From: an uncultured Bacilli bacterium
GTDB lineage: Bacteria > Bacillota_I > Bacilli_A > RF39 > UBA660
Direction: 5' to 3'
Assembly: GCA_934101645.1 (NCBI GenBank)
Contig: CAKORX010000003.1
Location: 5,179-69,178, forward strand
Length of the DNA: 64,000 nucleotides
The position numbers and the translations under genes are program-made. Numbering within the stretch: position 1 is the first letter of the stretch; each line of letters starts with the position of its first letter. Below the pieces are notes generated by a model, which was not told where the DNA came from, made no database searches, and saw only the letters and a program-made list of their open reading frames with translations. Below, piece after piece: positions 4,834 through 49,900 of the stretch.

Positions 4834-4862
4834 TTGACAAAAATTAAACATTTATGTATAAT
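4834..4862 (+). promoter_or_regulatory. consensus sigma-A-type promoter
   Basis: TTGACA (4834-4839), 17 nt spacer, TATAAT (4857-4862). Confidence 0.5.
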
Positions 4863-4886
4863 ATGGTCAATTTGTGGGGGGTAAAT

Positions 4887-5555
4887 ATGAAAGATTATGC
4901 GAGCGAATATAAAGGCTATTGTTTAACATGCAAAAATTATGATTTATCAGCAAAAAACGATGCTACTACAAGAGGGTTTAGATGTACTTATCATGGAAGA
5001 CCTATGGCAATGGATGAAAAGTGTCCAAGATATTCAAGAGATATCGCAAAGAGTAATTCATACATATCATCTGCAGTAAGTTGGATGAATAATCATGGCT
5101 ATGATCCACGTAGAGATAAAGATACATTTTGCTATATAACAACGATTTGCTGTGATATTTTAGGATATTCAGATAGTCATATATATTTAGAAAGTTTAAG
5201 AGCTTTAAGAGATTATTTACTTAATTCTGATTTTGGTAAAAAAATTCTTTTTGATTATGACGTTTATGGCGTAAAAGTTGCTCAAAAGGTGTATGAGTCT
5301 TATACTTTTGATAAAGAAAATACTCTTAGTATGATTAATGAAATTATAGTACCTAATTATTTTGAACCATTATGTGCATTAATTCAAAGTGGACAATTTG
5401 AACAAGCTACAAATTTATATGTAAAAATGACTTTTGTTTTAATGAGAAGGTATCACATAAATTATTATCTAATACCTATAAAAGGTAGTCAAATTGAGTC
5501 TAAAGACTTAGGGCATGGCTATGATTATGGTAGAAAATTAGCAATTAAATATTAA
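4887..5555 (+). CDS. hypothetical Cys-rich protein
   Basis: ORF with an N-terminal CxxC...C...H...C cluster (CLTCKNY...CTYHGRP...CPRY) suggesting a zinc ribbon. GGGGG RBS lies before ATG 4887. The track ORF starts at 4854. Confidence 0.45.
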   Translation: MKDYASEYKGYCLTCKNYDLSAKNDATTRGFRCTYHGRPMAMDEKCPRYSRDIAKSNSYISSAVSWMNNHGYDPRRDKDTFCYITTICCDILGYSDSHIYLESLRALRDYLLNSDFGKKILFDYDVYGVKVAQKVYESYTFDKENTLSMINEIIVPNYFEPLCALIQSGQFEQATNLYVKMTFVLMRRYHINYYLIPIKGSQIESKDLGHGYDYGRKLAIKY

Positions 5556-5637
5556 AAAATTGCTTTTTTATTGACGTAAAATAACTTTCATAGTATAATT
5601 TAATCCCATTGATAAATACTATAAATGAGGTGTAAAT

Positions 5638-5668
5638 TTGACATTTTACAAAAAATATGCTATAATCA
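5638..5668 (+). promoter_or_regulatory. promoter module A (TTGACA-17-TATAAT with GCTATaatcATAGC inverted repeat)
   Basis: TTGACA 5638-5643, TATAAT 5661-5666, inverted repeat GCTAT/ATAGC spanning the -10. This is near-identical to the element at 43820-43849. A second TTGACG-17-TATAAT lies at about 5571-5600. Confidence 0.5.
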
Positions 5669-5692
5669 TAGCGTAATAAGGGGGAAATAGAA

Positions 5693-6112
5693 ATGAAAGG
5701 TTATGTATTAGATTACGTTAATGAGAATGAATTTAGAAAATTAGAAAGAGCGTTAAAAAAATACAACATGATAGCTTTCAAAAAATTAAACTTCGAATAT
5801 TATCCATCATTAAGAAATGGTAATTTTGTAGGAGAAATGGTTGCTAGCAATAAGAAAAATGGTACAGAAAGTTATGAATTGAAACTTCCAAGTGATAAAA
5901 TATTTACTCAAATTCATGGCGAAGTTAAATTATTATATACAGTTCATAAAAAAGAGGGTATTGTAATTCTTGAAACATTAACTCCAGAAGATATTTTATT
6001 AGAAGGTCACAGAAGTGAACTTACTACATATAAAGGAATAATGATTTCTAAACAAAATGCCTCAAAAGAAATGTTTAAAATTGATTTATTAAATATGTTA
6101 CAAAATAAATAA
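5693..6112 (+). CDS. hypothetical protein
   Basis: 139-aa ORF with a GGGGG RBS. No confident family. Confidence 0.45.
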   Translation: MKGYVLDYVNENEFRKLERALKKYNMIAFKKLNFEYYPSLRNGNFVGEMVASNKKNGTESYELKLPSDKIFTQIHGEVKLLYTVHKKEGIVILETLTPEDILLEGHRSELTTYKGIMISKQNASKEMFKIDLLNMLQNK

Positions 6113-6138
6113 GCTGATTGGTGCTTATTTTTTTTATT
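6109..6138 (+). terminator. rho-independent terminator
   Basis: ATAAGC-tgattggt-GCTTAT hairpin followed by a T-run. Confidence 0.55.
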
Positions 6139-6185
6139 TTTTTATTGCTTTTTTAGTTTTTTTATAATATAATCATAGTGTTGTT

Positions 6186-38018: not shown

Positions 38019-38675
38019 ATGAAAATACTTTTAATTGAAGATGAACAATCACTTGTTAAAATTATAAAATAAACATTAGAAAATTCTAAATTTGAAGTAG
38101 ATTTTTCCTTAGATGGACTTATAGGGTATGAAAAAGCATTAAGCAATGAATACGATTTGATAATTTTAGATGTAATGCTTCCAAATAAAAACGGATTTGA
38201 TATTTTGAGTGATTTAAGAAAAAATAATATTACTAGTAAAATTATTATGCTTACTGCACTATCTAGTTTGGAAAATAAAATTGATGGGTTTAACAAAGGC
38301 ACAGATGATTATTTAACAAAGCCTTTCCATATTGAAGAGCTTATTGTGAGAATTAATAAACAACTTAATTTAATTAATTATAAAATTTCTTATGAGGATA
38401 TTTATTTAGATAAATCTAATAAAAAATTAATAAATGAAAAGACTAATGAAAGTGTTGACTTAGTTTGTAAAGAATATAAACTTTTAGAATATTTAATAAA
38501 TAATCAAATCATGATACTTTCAAAAGAGCAGATATACGATAAAGTGTGGGGTATTGAAAATGAAAGTGAATCAAATAATATTGAAGCATATATGTCATTT
38601 TTAAGAAAAAAACTAAAATCAATAGCTTCAAGTGTAACTATAAAGTCCTATCAAAATTTAGGCTATAAATTGGAA
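38019..38675 (+). pseudogene. OmpR-family response regulator with in-frame TAA at codon 18
   Basis: MKILLIEDEQSLVKIIK-TAA(38070-38072)-TLENSKFEVDFSLDGLIGYEKAL..YDLIILDVMLP...LTKPF... gives a receiver domain. A winged helix ending ...IKSYQNLGYKLE follows. The whole reading is in one frame. Confidence 0.7.
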
Positions 38676-38741
38676 GCTCAAAATGAGAAAGTTAAAAAGA
38701 AAATAGAAAATTCTTTGAAAGATATAAAAGAAAATAATTTA

Positions 38742-39278
38742 AGAACTCAAAATAATGACCGTAAAGATGAATTCTTTGAAAAGATAGTTTCAGATACAAC
38801 TTCATTCTATTTCAAAGGAAAAAAATATGATTGGACATTTTATTTAGATGTGTTTAATAATGAAATTGTTGGATTAGATGTAAGAAAAACAATGTACGGA
38901 AATGGTATATTAAATCATAAAAAAACTGTAGAAAATATGCTAAATAACAAAATAAAAAGAGGATATAAAGACCTAGATACAATAGTTCACATAGATCAAG
39001 GCATTATTTATTCCTCAGTATCATTTAAAAATATATTTAATTCCTATAACATAACCAGATCTATGTCTAGAGCTGGTATACCAACAGATAATCCAGTTAT
39101 TGAATCCAAAAATGGATGGTTAAAGAAAGAAATGTATATTGATTTTGACGTAAATAATTATAACACAGTTAAAGAATTTATTGATGATATTATTTGGGAT
39201 AATAATAACTATAGATCCAGTTATGCTTTAAATTATAAAAACCCAATTGAATATAGAACTCAACTGGGCTTTCAATAA
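38742..39278 (+). mobile_element. IS3/IS150-family transposase OrfB remnant (DDE integrase core only), fused in-frame to the response regulator
   Basis: ...VSDTTSFYFKGKKYDWTFYLDVFNNEIVG...HIDQGIIYSS...SMSRAGIPTDNPVIESKNGWLKKEM...YRTQ aligns with the catalytic half of IS3-family OrfB. There is no OrfA, no OrfB N-terminus and no stop codon between it and the regulator. Confidence 0.7.
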
Positions 39279-43801: not shown

Positions 43802-43819
43802 CTTCTAAATTTACAAAAT

Positions 43820-43849
43820 TTGACATTTTTCTAAAAAAATGCTATAATC
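43820..43849 (+). promoter_or_regulatory. promoter module B (TTGACA-18-TATAAT with GCTATaatcATAGC inverted repeat)
   Basis: TTGACA 43820-43825, TATAAT 43844-43849. Near-identical to module A at 5638-5668, including the downstream GGGGGAAATA RBS region. Confidence 0.5.
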
Positions 43850-43873
43850 ATAGCAGTTAAGGGGGGAAATAAA

Positions 43874-44356
43874 ATGAAAAATGAAGAAAGAAATTTAGAG
43901 AAGGGAAAATTAAATGTCACTAGATATTTAGGATTAGGACTAACTGCTTTTTCAATTGCTAGTGGTATAGTGTTACATTCACAAACTAACCATTTACTTG
44001 AAAGATGTCCTTTTGAAATACTATATGGTGACAAAGCAATTGAACATAGTATTGAGGAAGCAAAAAAACATAGAGAGACAAATACAATTAAAGTAGCACC
44101 TGTTGGTTATACACTTGATCCTAAGACTGGAAATTGTGTAACAGAATCAAGAAGTAATTTGGAAGTTACAATTAATCCGGAAACTGGAAAACTTGAAAAG
44201 AAATTAGCTACTAAAGAAGAATCTGTTGAACCTATGGCTTATACATATGATACATATTATGGATGGCCATCAGAGTTTTATGGTATAAGTAGTAGCGTTA
44301 CAAGTACTTCAGCGGAAGAAGAACTTGAAACTGCTGTAAGAAATTTGTATAGATAA
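43874..44356 (+). CDS. hypothetical membrane-anchored protein
   Basis: 160 aa with one N-terminal TM (LGLGLTAFSIASGIVL). No family recognised. Confidence 0.45.
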   Translation: MKNEERNLEKGKLNVTRYLGLGLTAFSIASGIVLHSQTNHLLERCPFEILYGDKAIEHSIEEAKKHRETNTIKVAPVGYTLDPKTGNCVTESRSNLEVTINPETGKLEKKLATKEESVEPMAYTYDTYYGWPSEFYGISSSVTSTSAEEELETAVRNLYR

Positions 44357-44357
44357 A

Positions 44358-44381
44358 AAGTGATTAAATTCACTTTTTTTA
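44358..44381 (+). terminator. rho-independent terminator
   Basis: AAGTGA-ttaaat-TCACTT hairpin followed by T8. Confidence 0.55.
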
Positions 44382-44428
44382 ATTGAATTATAAAAAAATA
44401 TAATCTATAATAAGCAAAAGAGGTAAGA

Positions 44429-44683
44429 ATGAAAGATATTGTAGAAATTAATGGTAAAAAATATTTTGTAATGTTTACATATGAAGATAGTCAAGAATAT
44501 AAATATATCTTCTATACAGATAATACCTATGATGAAAATAATAGACTTAATGTAATTTTTGGAACATATGAAATTCATGATGATAAATATTTAGTAAATG
44601 ATATAACAGATGAATTAAAAAAGCAAAAAGCTGCAAAAATATTTAATGAAGTTATAAAAGGTATGACTAATATTAATAAATAG
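44429..44683 (+). CDS. hypothetical small protein
   Basis: 84-aa ORF with a GAGG RBS. Confidence 0.4.
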   Translation: MKDIVEINGKKYFVMFTYEDSQEYKYIFYTDNTYDENNRLNVIFGTYEIHDDKYLVNDITDELKKQKAAKIFNEVIKGMTNINK

Positions 44684-46058: not shown

Positions 46059-46391
46059 ATGTTAAAAATGAATTTAGAATTCAATAAAGGTATTTTATTT
46101 GTTAGATTAGATGGAATGCTTAATAGAGCTACAACATATAAAGTTAATAATTATCTAGTGCCAGTTATATTAAAACATAAAATTAAATATTTAGTTTATA
46201 ATTTATATGCTTTAGAAGATATTGATGAAACTGGAATTGATGCTTTATTAAATACAAAATTTGCTATAAAAAGTAATAAAGGAGTAATATATTTTTGTGA
46301 AGTAAGTGATTATTTAAATAAAAAATTACATAAATTACACATAAAAAAGATTGATAATGAATTAGTGGCATCAAAATTAATTGAGGTTTAG
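46059..46391 (+). CDS. spoIIAA: anti-sigma-F factor antagonist (STAS domain), SpoIIAA-like
   Basis: 110 aa. ...ILFVRLDGML...IKYLVYNLYALEDIDETGIDALLN... aligns with the SpoIIAA phosphorylation segment (DLSFMDSSGLG), but with Thr at the phospho-Ser position. Confidence 0.7.
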   Translation: MLKMNLEFNKGILFVRLDGMLNRATTYKVNNYLVPVILKHKIKYLVYNLYALEDIDETGIDALLNTKFAIKSNKGVIYFCEVSDYLNKKLHKLHIKKIDNELVASKLIEV

Positions 46392-46394
46392 AAA

Positions 46395-47033
46395 ATGACT
46401 AAAGAACAAATCATTAACGAAAATGCTGGCTTAATTTATGAAATAGCAAAGAAGTTTTATGGTTATCCGAAAGAAGATTTATTTCAAGCAGGTGTTCTAG
46501 GTTTATTAAAAGCCTTTAAAAATTATGATCCTAGTTACGGAGCAAAGTTTTCAAGTTTTGCATATACTTCAATTTATGGAGAAATGTATTTACTAGTTAA
46601 TAATCGAAGTATGAAAATAAATAGAGAAGCTTTAAATTTATATAAGTTAATCGAACAAACTAGATTTTCTTTGGCTCAAAAGCTTGGCCATGTTCCAAAT
46701 TATAATGAAGTTGCAAATTTCTTGGAAATGGACCCCGTTAAAATTTATGATGCTGTAATAGCAGGTCAAGCTGTGATGAGTTTAGATAGTGCTGAAAATG
46801 CACCATTATATGATATTATTAAAAAAGAGGAAAGAACTTCTTTAGATGATAAATTGTTCTTAGATGAAGGTTTAAGTGTACTTTCCGAAGATGAAAAAAA
46901 TATTATTAAATCGAGATATTTTGATGATTTAACTCAAAGTGAAGTTGCAAGAAAACTTAGAATGACTCAAGTAATGGTTTCAAGATATGAGAAAAAAGGT
47001 ATTCAAAAAATGAGAGAGTATATGACTTTATAA
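46395..47033 (+). CDS. sigF: sporulation sigma factor, SigF-like (sigma-70 regions 2-4)
   Basis: ...DLFQAGVLGLLKAFKNYDP..G.KFSSFAYTSIYGEM... (region 2) and ...TQSEVARKLRMTQVMVSRYEKKGIQKM (region 4.2). It lies between spoIIAA and spoVAC as in Bacillus. At 212 aa it is about 40 aa shorter at the N-terminus than B. subtilis SigF. Confidence 0.7.
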   Translation: MTKEQIINENAGLIYEIAKKFYGYPKEDLFQAGVLGLLKAFKNYDPSYGAKFSSFAYTSIYGEMYLLVNNRSMKINREALNLYKLIEQTRFSLAQKLGHVPNYNEVANFLEMDPVKIYDAVIAGQAVMSLDSAENAPLYDIIKKEERTSLDDKLFLDEGLSVLSEDEKNIIKSRYFDDLTQSEVARKLRMTQVMVSRYEKKGIQKMREYMTL

Positions 47034-48910: not shown

Positions 48911-49900
48911 ATGGAAGAAAATAACGATTTTAAAATTGAGTTACCAAAAGTAAATGAAGAAAATAATAATGCATCTGTATCAGAACCAGTTGTGCAAATG
49001 CCTACTATAGAACCTTCTGTACAGCCGGCAATATCTAATGAGCCTACAAGTGAAGTAACTATGGAGCCAGTAGTTGAAACTCCAGTTGTTACAAGTCCAG
49101 AGGTTTCAATGGAAAGTACTCCAGAAACTTATAGTGAACCAGTATCACCGGTTACTATGATGCCAGAAGTTGAAGTTCCAACTGAAGTGCAAACTCCAGT
49201 AGTAGAACAAACTCCAACATCTGTAGAACCTGCGGTACAAATGCCTAGTGTGGAACCAGCTGTGGAGCCAGTAGTTGAAACTCCAGTTGTTACAAGTCCA
49301 GAGATTTCAATGGAAAGCACTCCAGAAACTTATAGTGAACCAGTATCACCGGTTACTATGATGCCAGAAGTTGAAGTTCCATCAGAAGTGCAAACTCCTG
49401 TAGTAGAACAAACTCCAACATCTGTAGAACCAACTATAGATGTAGCTCCTGCAACTTCAGAAATTTCTATGCCTGAAGTTGAAACTCCAGTAAATAGTGA
49501 AGTTACTTCAGCACCAGTAGAACCAGCGCAAACACAAGTAAGTGCACCTGAACAAACTACTTATGAAGCTGTTCAAACTCCAAATGTGGACGTAGCACAA
49601 GAACAACCTTCTGAAATGCAGTCATCTGTTTCAGAACCTGCTACTGAAGTACCTGAAACTCCAGTTTCAACAATTGCGGAAACACCTGCACAACCTGAAC
49701 TAGCACAAAATGTTAATTTTAATCAAACTGCTCCTGTGATGGAAAGTGCTCCTGTTATGGAAGGACAAACAGAAAATAATAATAAAACTGAGTTACCAAA
49801 AGTTAGTAAGCCAGTTAAAATTATTTGTACTGTCGCAGTAATTGTTGTAGCGTTATTGATTATTTACTTTCTTGTAAGAAACTTTTTCTTAGTTAAATAA
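48911..49900 (+). CDS. P/T/E/V-rich low-complexity surface protein with C-terminal TM anchor and internal 67-aa tandem duplication
   Basis: 329 aa. Two near-identical 67-aa repeats (PVVETPVVTSPE[VI]SMESTPETYSEPVSPVTMMPEVEVP[TS]EVQTPVVEQTPTSVEP). C-terminal hydrophobic helix IICTVAVIVVALLIIYFLV. Confidence 0.6.
   Translation: MEENNDFKIELPKVNEENNNASVSEPVVQMPTIEPSVQPAISNEPTSEVTMEPVVETPVVTSPEVSMESTPETYSEPVSPVTMMPEVEVPTEVQTPVVEQTPTSVEPAVQMPSVEPAVEPVVETPVVTSPEISMESTPETYSEPVSPVTMMPEVEVPSEVQTPVVEQTPTSVEPTIDVAPATSEISMPEVETPVNSEVTSAPVEPAQTQVSAPEQTTYEAVQTPNVDVAQEQPSEMQSSVSEPATEVPETPVSTIAETPAQPELAQNVNFNQTAPVMESAPVMEGQTENNNKTELPKVSKPVKIICTVAVIVVALLIIYFLVRNFFLVK
49064..49431 (+). repeat. 201-bp direct tandem duplication (2 copies, >95% identical)
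   Basis: GAGCCAGTAGTTGAAACTCCAGTTGTTACAAGTCCAGAG... at 49064 recurs at 49265 (period 201 bp) with a handful of substitutions. Confidence 0.9.

What the first reader, a model, noticed from the sequence alone, without database searches (positions are those of the whole stretch)
5638..5700. Duplicated ~60-bp promoter/leader module (copy A) shared with 43820-43880: TTGACA-N17/18-TATAAT with inverted repeat GCTATaatcATAGC over the -10 and identical GGGGGAAATA RBS
Copy A (aatTTGACATTTTacAAAAAATaTGCTATAATCATAGCgtaaTAAGGGGGAAATAgAAATGAAA) and copy B (aatTTGACATTTTtcTAAAAAAATGCTATAATCATAGCagtTAAGGGGGGAAATAaAATGAAA) are nearly identical, yet they precede unrelated hypothetical proteins (139 aa vs 160 aa) 38 kb apart. 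The GCTAT/ATAGC inverted repeat overlapping the -10 looks like an operator. A third partial occurrence (TATAATCATAGtg) sits in the tRNA promoter at ~6163-6180. This suggests a regulon-defining promoter cassette, or a small mobile promoter element.
Basis: seen in the sequence. Interest (0 to 1): 0.55.

Follow-up and report, generated by a model that had tools for sequence, protein, structure and literature searches.

The report
Two look-alike strong promoters, not mobile
Two unrelated small genes in an uncultured gut bacterium carry nearly identical, near-perfect promoter and ribosome-binding regions, each inherited with its own gene rather than copied around; the one unusual shared feature is a short inverted repeat across the -10 box that may be a regulatory site.

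Summary
Copy A (5634-5698) and copy B (43816-43879) align at 88-90% identity, well above chance (64 bits; best of 30 shuffles 45).

The window is chromosome of a 25%-GC uncultured gut Bacilli species. Each copy is a perfect TTGACA-17-TGcTATAAT sigma-A-type promoter, a leader of about 20 nt, a G5-6 Shine-Dalgarno and ATGAAA.

It is not a mobile or multi-copy element:
- A profile of the module finds only these two sites in the window.
- Each copy is also found upstream of its gene's homologues in other species.
- A strict genome scan found no further copy.

The -35-to-(-10) half is a generic optimal promoter. A 23-base pattern taken from it matches about 125 stretches of DNA, most of them outside these two gene families (marine, freshwater, phage).

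The non-generic part is the inverted repeat over the -10. It folds at -4.5 kcal/mol or better in 9 of 15 module variants, against 1 of 57 unrelated promoters with the same core. One lineage shows a compensatory change. Five variants lack the repeat, including a sister strain of copy B.

The shared tRNA-promoter 11-mer is not conserved in orthologues. "Operator/regulon" is plausible but unproven. Interest is modest.

The parts
5634..5698 (+). Copy A: promoter P2 plus leader of the 139-aa gene, the full stretch similar to copy B
   Evidence: 64 bits; shuffles at most 45. nhmmer profile hit E = 2e-14.
5638..5666 (+). Copy A core promoter: -35 TTGACA (5638-5643), 17-nt spacer, TG (5658-5659), -10 TATAAT (5661-5666)
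   Evidence: 12/12, TG yes. The -35, the TG and most -10 positions are invariant in 14 variants.
5656..5675 (+). Copy A inverted repeat over the -10: TATGCTAT-AATC-ATAGCGTA. The core arms are GCTAT 5659-5663 and ATAGC 5668-5672.
   Evidence: RNAfold gives an 8-bp stem at -7.0 kcal/mol, better than 300/300 shuffles.
5680..5695 (+). Copy A G5 Shine-Dalgarno (5680-5684), AAATAGAA spacer and ATG (5693-5695). The inferred start of P2 transcripts is near 5673.
   Evidence: one of only 7 runs of five or more G in the window. Conserved in all A-family orthologues. The start site is an inference.
5571..5599 (+). P1: second promoter (TTGACG-17-TATAAT) about 65 nt upstream of copy A. Its transcripts would contain the whole of copy A.
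   Evidence: 11/12. The tandem P1+P2 arrangement is kept in 7 orthologous loci.
5540..5569 (+). Terminator-like hairpin plus U6 after the 222-aa gene, separating it from P1/P2
   Evidence: -4.4 kcal/mol, 7-bp stem followed by a U run.
5693..6112 (+). 139-aa gene driven by copy A. A conserved family of unknown function.
   Evidence: 3387 homologous clusters and 350 representatives. No Pfam, NCBIfam or PHROG hit. AF2 pLDDT 61, no fold match.
43816..43879 (+). Copy B: promoter plus leader of the 160-aa gene
   Evidence: nhmmer E = 2e-14.
43820..43848 (+). Copy B core promoter: -35 43820-43825, TG 43840-43841, -10 43843-43848
   Evidence: the only 12/12 site with TG in 38-50 kb.
43840..43855 (+). 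Copy B inverted repeat TGCTAT-AATC-ATAGCA. As a 16-bp palindrome, 7 of 8 pairs match.
   Evidence: -5.1 kcal/mol. It is a perfect 16-bp palindrome, TGCTATAATTATAGCA, in homologues L138, L184, L193 and L196.
43810..43815 (+). Upstream TTTACA element 4-5 nt before the -35. It is shared by B-family promoters and several A-family promoters.
   Evidence: An identical 17-mer, TTTACATAAATTTGACA, occurs in L138 (B family) and L280 (A family).
43861..43876 (+). Copy B G6 Shine-Dalgarno (43861-43866) and ATG (43874-43876)
   Evidence: Conserved in all B-family homologues.
43874..44356 (+). 160-aa membrane-anchored ORFan driven by copy B, followed by a terminator hairpin at 44355-44378
   Evidence: Only 23 homologous clusters. 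Terminator -8.2 kcal/mol, z = -4.0.
4834..4889 (+). Third promoter of similar build: TTGACA-17-TATAAT, G6 Shine-Dalgarno (4876-4881) and ATG at 4887 (the likely true start of the 222-aa gene). It has no TGn and no inverted repeat.
   Evidence: The G run is not conserved in orthologues.
6145..6178 (+). tRNA-Met/Leu promoter TTGCTT-17-TATAAT followed by CATAG. It shares the 11-mer TATAATCATAG with A and B.
   Evidence: CATAG is absent from the orthologous tRNA promoters of 4 other species.

Best explanation
Copies A and B are two separately inherited, very strong expression signals, not copies of a mobile or recently duplicated element.

Each consists of:
- a consensus housekeeping (sigma-A/sigma-70 type) promoter with an extended -10 (TTGACA, 17 bp, TGcTATAAT);
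- a start site inferred about 7 nt after the -10;
- an unstructured, A-rich leader of about 20 nt;
- a G5-6 Shine-Dalgarno 8 nt (copy A) or 7 nt (copy B) before ATG-AAA.

Together these should give high, activator-independent transcription and efficient translation of a small gene: a widely conserved 139-aa protein for A and a lineage-restricted 160-aa membrane protein for B.

The two look alike for three reasons:
- Both sit at the same optimum. The -35, the A/T-rich spacer, the TRTG/extended -10, the strong Shine-Dalgarno and the AAA second codon are all consensus-type features.
- Both carry an inverted repeat that spans the -10.
- Once the 5' arm is fixed as TGCTAT by the extended -10, the 3' arm has to read ATAGCA. 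This accounts for the otherwise surprising shared CATAGC.

The inverted repeat is the only feature that ordinary promoter function does not explain. I consider it probably functional. The most likely role is a dyad operator for an unidentified dimeric repressor that blocks the -10.

Shown: the promoter and Shine-Dalgarno anatomy, its conservation with each gene, the absence of further copies, and the rarity of the repeat in control promoters.
Inferred: promoter strength, start sites, and any role of the repeat.
For: Anatomy:
- Both are 12/12 promoter matches with TG.
- Only 7 runs of five or more G exist in the 64 kb. Three of them are Shine-Dalgarno sequences behind the three perfect 17-spacer promoters.

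Vertical inheritance:
- A-family promoters in 8 other species keep TTGACA-17-TGnTATAAT/TATACT, the leader CGTAAT(T/A)AGGGGG, and mostly the upstream P1.
- B-family promoters in at least 6 other lineages are 81-86% identical to copy B, while the proteins are only 34-51% identical.
- Each window copy keeps its own family's leader.

Not multi-copy:
- Exact and profile searches find only A and B in the window.
- The scan of 185,579 species genomes for TGCTATAATCATAGC-N4-10-GGGGG returned copy A of this species plus two unrelated Clostridia sites.

Generic core:
- TTGACANTTNNNNAAAAANATGCTATAAT matches 98 metagenome and 27 viral stretches. Most are outside these two gene families, from marine, freshwater and phage sequence.

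Non-generic repeat:
- 89% of cells are paired in register across 14 variants, against 14-62% when the partner is slid.
- One pair changes on both sides (CG 9, AU 3, GU 1). Lineage L267 reads GATAT-ACTG-ATATC.
- A hairpin of -4.5 kcal/mol or better occurs in 9 of 15 variants, against 1 of 57 controls.
- By my count of roughly independent lineages this is 4 of 8 against 1 of 57, Fisher p = 5e-4.
Against: - No transcription data are available. Promoter activity, start sites and expression level are all inferred.
- winA and winB are more alike (90%) than either is to most of its own orthologues (52-88%). That could reflect some within-genome homogenisation rather than shared optimisation alone.
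- The repeat is absent in L268, L134, L136 and L280 (A family). In the sister strain L139/L140 (B family) five clustered transitions removed it. It is therefore dispensable.
- The module variants are related by descent, so the enrichment statistics overstate independence.
- The lineage count and the -4.5 kcal/mol threshold were chosen after seeing the data.
- Only about 64 kb of this genome, plus flanks, could be searched with a tolerant model.
Confidence: 0.7

Rival explanations
1. Operator and regulon. The dyad TGCTAT-N4-ATAGCA over the -10 is the binding site of a dimeric repressor that co-regulates the 139-aa and 160-aa genes, and perhaps others elsewhere in the genome. The shared module defines that regulon.
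For: - The repeat is rare in control promoters (1/57) and among other strong promoter-like sites in the window.
- It occurs in both gene families across species. It is a perfect palindrome in L266 (A family) and in L138, L184, L193 and L196 (B family).
- L267 shows a symmetrical change in both arms.
- The B promoter is far better conserved than its coding sequence.
Against: - No third site in the window and none in the strict genome scan.
- No regulator gene is consistently linked to either locus.
- The repeat is lost in 5 of 15 variants.
- In L132 and L188 the repeat sits in a different register. That is hard to reconcile with one conserved protein site.
- Most species that have the A gene lack the B gene (3387 against 23 clusters).
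Confidence: 0.3
2. RNA hairpin. The inverted repeat acts in RNA, as a stem-loop in longer transcripts that start upstream (P1 for copy A, read-through from the MMPL or tmk operon for copy B). It could be a processing or stabilising element about 10 nt before the Shine-Dalgarno. Transcripts from the module's own promoter would lack it.
For: - A conserved upstream promoter P1 exists at A loci.
- There is no terminator between the upstream gene and copy B.
- In the A clade the stem runs through a G-U pair to 8 bp. Several departures from Watson-Crick pairing are G-U on the sense strand.
- The repeat is kept in different registers in L132 and L188, i.e. structure without sequence.
Against: - The stems are weak (-4 to -7 kcal/mol).
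- RNAalifold gives only -2.2 kcal/mol with almost no covariation term.
- The full P1 leader is not unusually stable (z = -1.1).
- My tally of G-U against A-C mismatches is about 7 to 3, which is not significant (derived).
- There is no Rfam match.
- The stem is lost in 5 of 15 variants.
Confidence: 0.12
3. Recent duplication or gene conversion. One copy was overwritten by the other within this species, so the similarity is recent common descent of the DNA itself.
For: - winA and winB share 90% identity. That is higher than winA against its closest orthologue (83%) or winB against non-conspecific homologues (81-86%).
- Both share the TTTT.C start of the spacer and the C after the -10, which the other B-family promoters mostly lack.
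Against: - Each copy keeps its family-specific leader: CGTAATAA in A, as in 8 other A loci, and AGTTAAG in B, as in L182.
- Each copy keeps its family-specific upstream flank.
- The A-type spacer features (TTTT..., AAAAATATG) are also present in A orthologues L267 and L268.
- The shared states are few and mostly A/T.
Confidence: 0.12
4. Small mobile promoter element (MITE-like or cassette-borne) that has inserted in front of unrelated genes.
For: - Nearly identical 65-bp stretches lie in front of unrelated genes.
- Both gene-plus-promoter units are found in different genomic contexts in some relatives: L266 for A; tmk against MMPL for B.
Against: - Only two copies, no terminal or flanking repeats, and similarity bounded by the -35 flank and the ATG.
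- When the context changes, the promoter moves together with its gene as a block. It is never seen alone.
- There is no match to the strict core elsewhere in the representative genome.
Confidence: 0.03

Closest known systems
Extended -10 (TGn) sigma-A/sigma-70 promoters of low-GC Gram-positive bacteria, with a TRTG -16 region (general knowledge)
   Same: Perfect -35, 17-bp spacer, TATG-C-TATAAT, A/T-rich spacer, and a predicted purine start about 7 nt downstream. The same 23-base core recurs in unrelated bacteria and phages.
   Different: The two promoters also share an inverted repeat spanning the -10 and a G5-6 Shine-Dalgarno that is unusual for this 25%-GC genome.
Dyad operators overlapping the -10, as in LexA/Cheo boxes, Fur/PerR/Zur 7-1-7 boxes or BlaI/MecI sites (recalled from the literature, not tested against motif databases)
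   Same: A short dyad-symmetric sequence centred on the -10, where a bound dimer would exclude RNA polymerase.
   Different: The sequence TGCTAT-N4-ATAGCA does not fit the consensus of any of those boxes. For example, it is not symmetric in the 7-1-7 Fur-family register. No cognate regulator is known. The dyad is not universally conserved in orthologous promoters.
CIRCE-type elements, i.e. an inverted repeat acting both as an operator in DNA and as a stem-loop in mRNA (recalled knowledge)
   Same: The inverted repeat lies in a promoter/leader region and could act at the DNA or the RNA level. Longer transcripts from upstream would contain it.
   Different: CIRCE is a 9-N9-9 repeat downstream of the start site with a known repressor (HrcA). 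Here the repeat is 5-8 bp, lies over the -10, and is absent from the module's own transcript.
Tandem promoters (P1/P2) in front of highly expressed genes such as rRNA operons (general knowledge)
   Same: Copy A is the downstream member of a conserved pair of consensus promoters about 65 bp apart.
   Different: They drive a small protein gene of unknown function. Copy B has no P1.

Membership tests
Sigma-A/sigma-70 promoter with extended -10 | -35 TTGACA and -10 TATAAT separated by 17 +/- 1 bp | tested here: met
   12/12 matches with a 17-bp spacer in both copies.
Sigma-A/sigma-70 promoter with extended -10 | TG dinucleotide one base upstream of the -10 | tested here: met
   TGC precedes TATAAT in both copies. 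TG is invariant in 14 variants.
Sigma-A/sigma-70 promoter with extended -10 | Promoter elements conserved in orthologous upstream regions | tested here: met
   The -35 hexamer is invariant and the -10 nearly so across both gene families.
Sigma-A/sigma-70 promoter with extended -10 | Mapped transcription start downstream of the -10 | not testable with these tools
   No transcriptome data are available. The starts near 5673 and 43855 are inferred.
Dyad repressor operator / regulon | Dyad symmetry beyond what similar promoters show by chance | tested here: met
   1 of 57 control promoters against 9 of 15 module variants have a -10-spanning stem of -4.5 kcal/mol or better. No control matches the palindromic complement at 6 or more of 7 positions.
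Dyad repressor operator / regulon | Site conserved in orthologous promoters | tested here: inconclusive
   Kept, sometimes perfect or compensated, in 10 variants. Lost in L268, L134, L136, L280 and L139.
Dyad repressor operator / regulon | Further sites at other promoters of the same genome | tested here: not met
   None in the 64-kb window. The strict genome scan found copy A only. A tolerant whole-genome search was not possible.
Dyad repressor operator / regulon | Identified cognate DNA-binding protein | not tested
   No regulator gene is consistently adjacent to either locus. Binding cannot be tested here.
Mobile promoter element / MITE | Many copies per genome | tested here: not met
   Two copies in the window. 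The next nhmmer hit has E = 0.13. The strict genome scan gave one hit in the representative MAG.
Mobile promoter element / MITE | Terminal inverted repeats or target-site duplications at the ends | tested here: not met
   The alignment ends at the -35 flank and at ATGAAA with no flanking repeats.
Mobile promoter element / MITE | Presence independent of the downstream gene | tested here: not met
   Every homologous module found lies in front of a homologue of the 139-aa or the 160-aa gene.
Known cis-regulatory RNA (Rfam) | Match to a curated covariance model | tested here: not met
   Only tRNAs reach gathering score. The regions around A and B give only chance-level hits.

The most novel reading that the evidence does not exclude
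The inverted repeat spanning the -10 is a true regulatory element. It would be either the operator of an unknown dimeric repressor or a stem-loop acting in upstream-initiated transcripts. It would couple the expression of a widespread uncharacterised 139-aa protein family and a fast-evolving 160-aa membrane protein in a clade of uncultured, very AT-rich, spore-forming gut Bacilli. That would explain why the B promoter is 81-86% conserved while its protein has diverged to 34-51% identity.
Probability: 0.3. Interest if true: 0.45.

Novelty: new member of a known kind. Interest (0 to 1): 0.3.

Why it matters
As it stands this is mainly a clarification. A striking 65-bp "duplication" turns out to be two vertically inherited, near-optimal promoter and ribosome-binding regions, and much of their identity is consensus sequence that recurs in unrelated organisms.

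Two points may be useful:
- These are ready-made, probably very strong expression signals for an uncultured, 25%-GC gut lineage.
- The -10-spanning inverted repeat is statistically unusual and recurs in two unrelated gene families. It is a concrete, cheap-to-test candidate regulatory site, and it points to two uncharacterised small proteins that the cell seems to express at high level.

Tried and rejected
- Plain 15-mer in a public collection. A stricter pattern was therefore used for the single genome scan. It cannot see diverged copies.
- Phage origin. No meaningful phage DNA match and no PHROG hits. The window is chromosome, with Tex, YabP/YqfD, Era, RecO, SigF-like and SpoVA genes.
- Function of the 139-aa protein. 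No hit in Pfam, NCBIfam, PHROGs or PDB sequences. The AF2 model has pLDDT 61 and Foldseek gives only noise.
- Anti-Shine-Dalgarno pairing between the conserved CCC at the 5' end of P1 transcripts and the G run. It appears in the single-sequence fold, but RNAalifold does not support it and two orthologues lack the CCC.
- Known operator consensus sequences (Fur/PerR/Zur 7-1-7, LexA, Rex, CodY, CcpA, Spo0A box). These were compared by eye from memory and none fits. This is not a database test.
- Literature search for the palindrome strings returned only irrelevant malaria papers.
- Linking A and B loci of a second species. Two metagenomes, OIZL01 and OLHG01, each hold an L188-type A locus and a B locus, but the same organism could not be established.
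- tRNA promoter as a third member. CATAG is not conserved in orthologous tRNA promoters.

Full report
**Observation.**
- TGCTATAATCATAGC occurs exactly twice in the window.
- The best local alignment is 5634-5698 against 43816-43879: 66 columns, 87.9% identity, 64.1 bits. The best self-match in each of 30 dinucleotide shuffles scored 33-45 bits.
- Global identity over positions -58 to -1 is 90%.
- Both are 12/12 TTGACA-17-TATAAT matches preceded by TG. A regular-expression scan shows they are the only perfect 17-spacer promoters with TGn in the 64 kb.
- The downstream proteins are unrelated.
- The 11-mer TATAATCATAG recurs at 6168-6178 in the promoter of tRNA-Met/tRNA-Leu.

**What the window is.** This is not a phage. 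The GC content is 25%. Genes include Tex, YabP/YqfD, YbeY, Era, RecO, GlyRS, a SigF-like sigma factor, SpoVAC/D/E, an MMPL transporter and a TetR regulator. Identical proteins lie on human-gut metagenome contigs of 200-650 kb. The genome scan places copy A in MAG CAKONC01, titled "uncultured Bacilli bacterium" and taken from Hadza gut samples.

**Anatomy of copy A.**
- The 139-aa gene is a self-contained unit.
- Upstream lies a terminator-like hairpin with a U run after the neighbouring gene (5540-5569).
- Next comes promoter P1 (5571-5599, 11/12 match).
- Then promoter P2, which is copy A.
- The leader from the inferred start near 5673 is about 20 nt long.
- The Shine-Dalgarno is G5 at 5680-5684, followed by ATGAAA.
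- After the gene there is another terminator-like hairpin (6108-6129 plus U8).

**Anatomy of copy B.**
- The copy B similarity block starts 14 nt after the MMPL stop codon, and nothing between them folds as a terminator.
- A strong terminator follows the 160-aa gene.

**The G-run Shine-Dalgarno is unusual here.** The window holds only seven runs of five or more G. Three of them sit behind the three perfect 17-spacer promoters. The third is at 4834-4889, in front of the 222-aa neighbour of the 139-aa gene, whose real start is probably the ATG at 4887. Typical ribosome-binding sites in this genome are AGGTG or GGAGG types.

**Is it multi-copy or mobile? No.**
- A profile built from 17 module instances finds only A and B in the window (E about 2e-14). 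The next hit has E = 0.13.
- A scan of 185,579 species genomes for TGCTATAATCATAGC-N4-10-GGGGG returned copy A of this species and two unrelated Clostridia sites.
- The similarity ends at the -35 flank and at the start codon, with no flanking repeats.

**Each copy belongs to its gene: the A family.**
- The 139-aa protein has 3387 homologous clusters.
- Upstream regions from eight other species, with proteins 60-94% identical, all keep a consensus -35, a 17-bp spacer, TGn, a -10, the leader CGTAAT(T/A)AGGGGG, and in most cases the upstream P1.
- Copy A carries this A-type leader.

**Each copy belongs to its gene: the B family.**
- The 160-aa protein is a narrow family of 23 clusters.
- Homologues in other gut species lie after glyA-thyA-folA-tmk.
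- All carry TTTACAC-AAATTTGACAGTTATAAAAAAATATGCTA(T/C)AAT(T/C)AT(A/G)GCA..GGGGG.
- These promoters are 81-86% identical to copy B, although the proteins are only 34-51% identical.
- When the genomic context differs, promoter and gene move as one block. L138 aligns to the window from the TTTACA element through the following 84-aa gene. L266 has the whole P1-P2-gene unit at another locus.

**How much of the similarity is generic?** A 23-base pattern taken from the -35-to-(-10) half (TTGACANTTNNNNAAAAANATGCTATAAT) matched 98 metagenome and 27 viral stretches. Most are from marine, freshwater and phage sequence outside these two gene families. That half is therefore a recurrent optimal promoter and could arise by convergence.

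**The non-generic part is the inverted repeat over the -10.**
- In 57 non-redundant unrelated promoters with the same core, none matches the palindromic complement at 6 or more of 7 positions.
- Only one of those 57 folds at -4.5 kcal/mol or better across the -10, and their mean is -1.2 kcal/mol.
- Among module variants, 9 of 15 do so: winA -7.0, L266 -7.2, L188 -6.3, L132 -5.9, L267 -5.2, winB -5.1, and others.
- Of 12 strong promoter-like sites in the window, only A and B have such a stem in an intergenic position.
- On 14 distinct variants, 89% of cells pair in register, against 14-62% when the partner is slid. One pair changes on both sides (CG 9, AU 3, GU 1). L267 reads GATAT-ACTG-ATATC where copy A reads GCTAT-AATC-ATAGC.
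- Counting roughly independent lineages by my own judgement gives 4 of 8 against 1 of 57, Fisher p = 5e-4.

Once such a repeat exists, the shared CATAGC follows from the shared TGCTAT.

**Caveats on the repeat.**
- It is absent in L268, L134, L136 and L280 (A family).
- In the sister strain L139/L140, whose coding sequence is 96% identical, five transitions clustered in about 10 nt destroyed it.
- In L132 and L188 it lies in a different register.
- Part of the A-clade stem is made of two independently conserved motifs: TATG of the -16 region and CGTA at the start of the leader.
- The variants are related by descent, and the energy threshold was chosen after seeing the data.
- RNAalifold gives only -2.2 kcal/mol for the A loci, and the whole P1 leader is not unusually stable.
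- There is no Rfam match.

**Recent conversion?** winA and winB are more alike than either is to most of its orthologues, and they share a few states such as the TTTT.C spacer start and the C after the -10. However, each keeps its family-specific leader and upstream flank, and the A-type spacer features occur in A orthologues. I rate conversion as possible but minor.

**The tRNA promoter.** The CATAG after its -10 is not present in the orthologous tRNA-Met/Leu promoters of four other species. I treat it as coincidence or a species-specific quirk.

**Conclusion.** These are two separately inherited, near-optimal sigma-A promoter and leader regions with strong G-run Shine-Dalgarno sequences. They look alike mainly because both sit at the same optimum and both carry a -10-spanning inverted repeat.
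- "Mobile promoter element" is rejected.
- "Operator/regulon" remains a reasonable hypothesis (about 0.3), with an RNA stem-loop in upstream-initiated transcripts as the alternative (about 0.12).
- No regulator, no third member and no expression data are available.
- The functions of both proteins remain unknown.

Noticed in passing
window 4834-4889: A third perfect TTGACA-17-TATAAT promoter with a G6 Shine-Dalgarno lies in front of the Cys-rich 222-aa gene. The ORF list starts that gene at 4854, but the likely start is the ATG at 4887. The gene is the conserved upstream neighbour of the 139-aa gene. Its G run is not conserved in orthologues.
   Followed up: partly
window 5571-5637; L132, L134, L136, L266-L268: All A loci have a second consensus promoter (P1) about 65 nt upstream. 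A conserved block, (A/G)TCCCATTGTGGAAATACTATAA, lies right after its -10, i.e. at the 5' end of P1 transcripts. Its role is unknown. Pairing of the CCC with the G-run Shine-Dalgarno was not supported by RNAalifold.
   Followed up: partly
window 5693-6112; L270-L273: The 139-aa protein belongs to a sizeable family with no Pfam or NCBIfam model: 3387 clusters at 90% identity and 350 representatives at 50%. Some members are fused to longer proteins and four lie on IMG/VR viral contigs. The AF2 model is poor and has no fold match.
   Followed up: partly
L139 5934-6005 and L140, against window 43849-43861: In a sister strain with a 96% identical coding sequence, five transitions cluster within about 10 nt just downstream of the -10 (CATAGCAGTTAAG becomes TACAGTAATCAAG). 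Only one other difference occurs in the module. This may be why copy B of the GTDB representative MAG did not match the strict pattern, but that was not checked.
   Followed up: partly
window 43806-44662 against L138 1050-1881; L274-L279: The unit of promoter, 160-aa gene, terminator and 80-84-aa DUF1292-like gene sits after glyA-thyA-folA-tmk and before cotJB-cotJC in related species. In this species it sits after an MMPL transporter gene, so the block has been relocated.
   Followed up: partly
L004 10761-17517: One strain of this species carries an insertion of about 7 kb between the 139-aa gene (with its downstream tRNA-Met/Leu region) and the FAD-oxidoreductase gene. It encodes a serine recombinase, a Mob_Pre relaxase and a KilA-N protein, and looks like an integrative mobilisable element.
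   Followed up: no
window 46059-47033: A SpoIIAA-like STAS protein is followed directly by a SigF-like sigma factor, with no SpoIIAB-type anti-sigma kinase gene between them. SpoVAC/D/E follow.
   Followed up: no
window 49052-49431: A tandem 201-bp direct repeat, 95-97% identical, lies inside the 329-aa ORF at 48911-49900. A third, weaker copy is near 49648.
   Followed up: no
window 38157-39278 (L007 4302-5405): The called product combines response-regulator receiver and Trans_reg_C domains with an rve integrase domain. In L139 only a 176-aa rve fragment is present at this position.
   Followed up: no
L009, L013, L034, L051 and other IMG/VR contigs: Unrelated environmental phage contigs carry repeated promoters of the form TTGACA-17-TGCTATAATCATAGCATGAG... 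The same 16-bp near-palindrome is followed immediately by ATG. It is unrelated to the window by flanking sequence.
   Followed up: no
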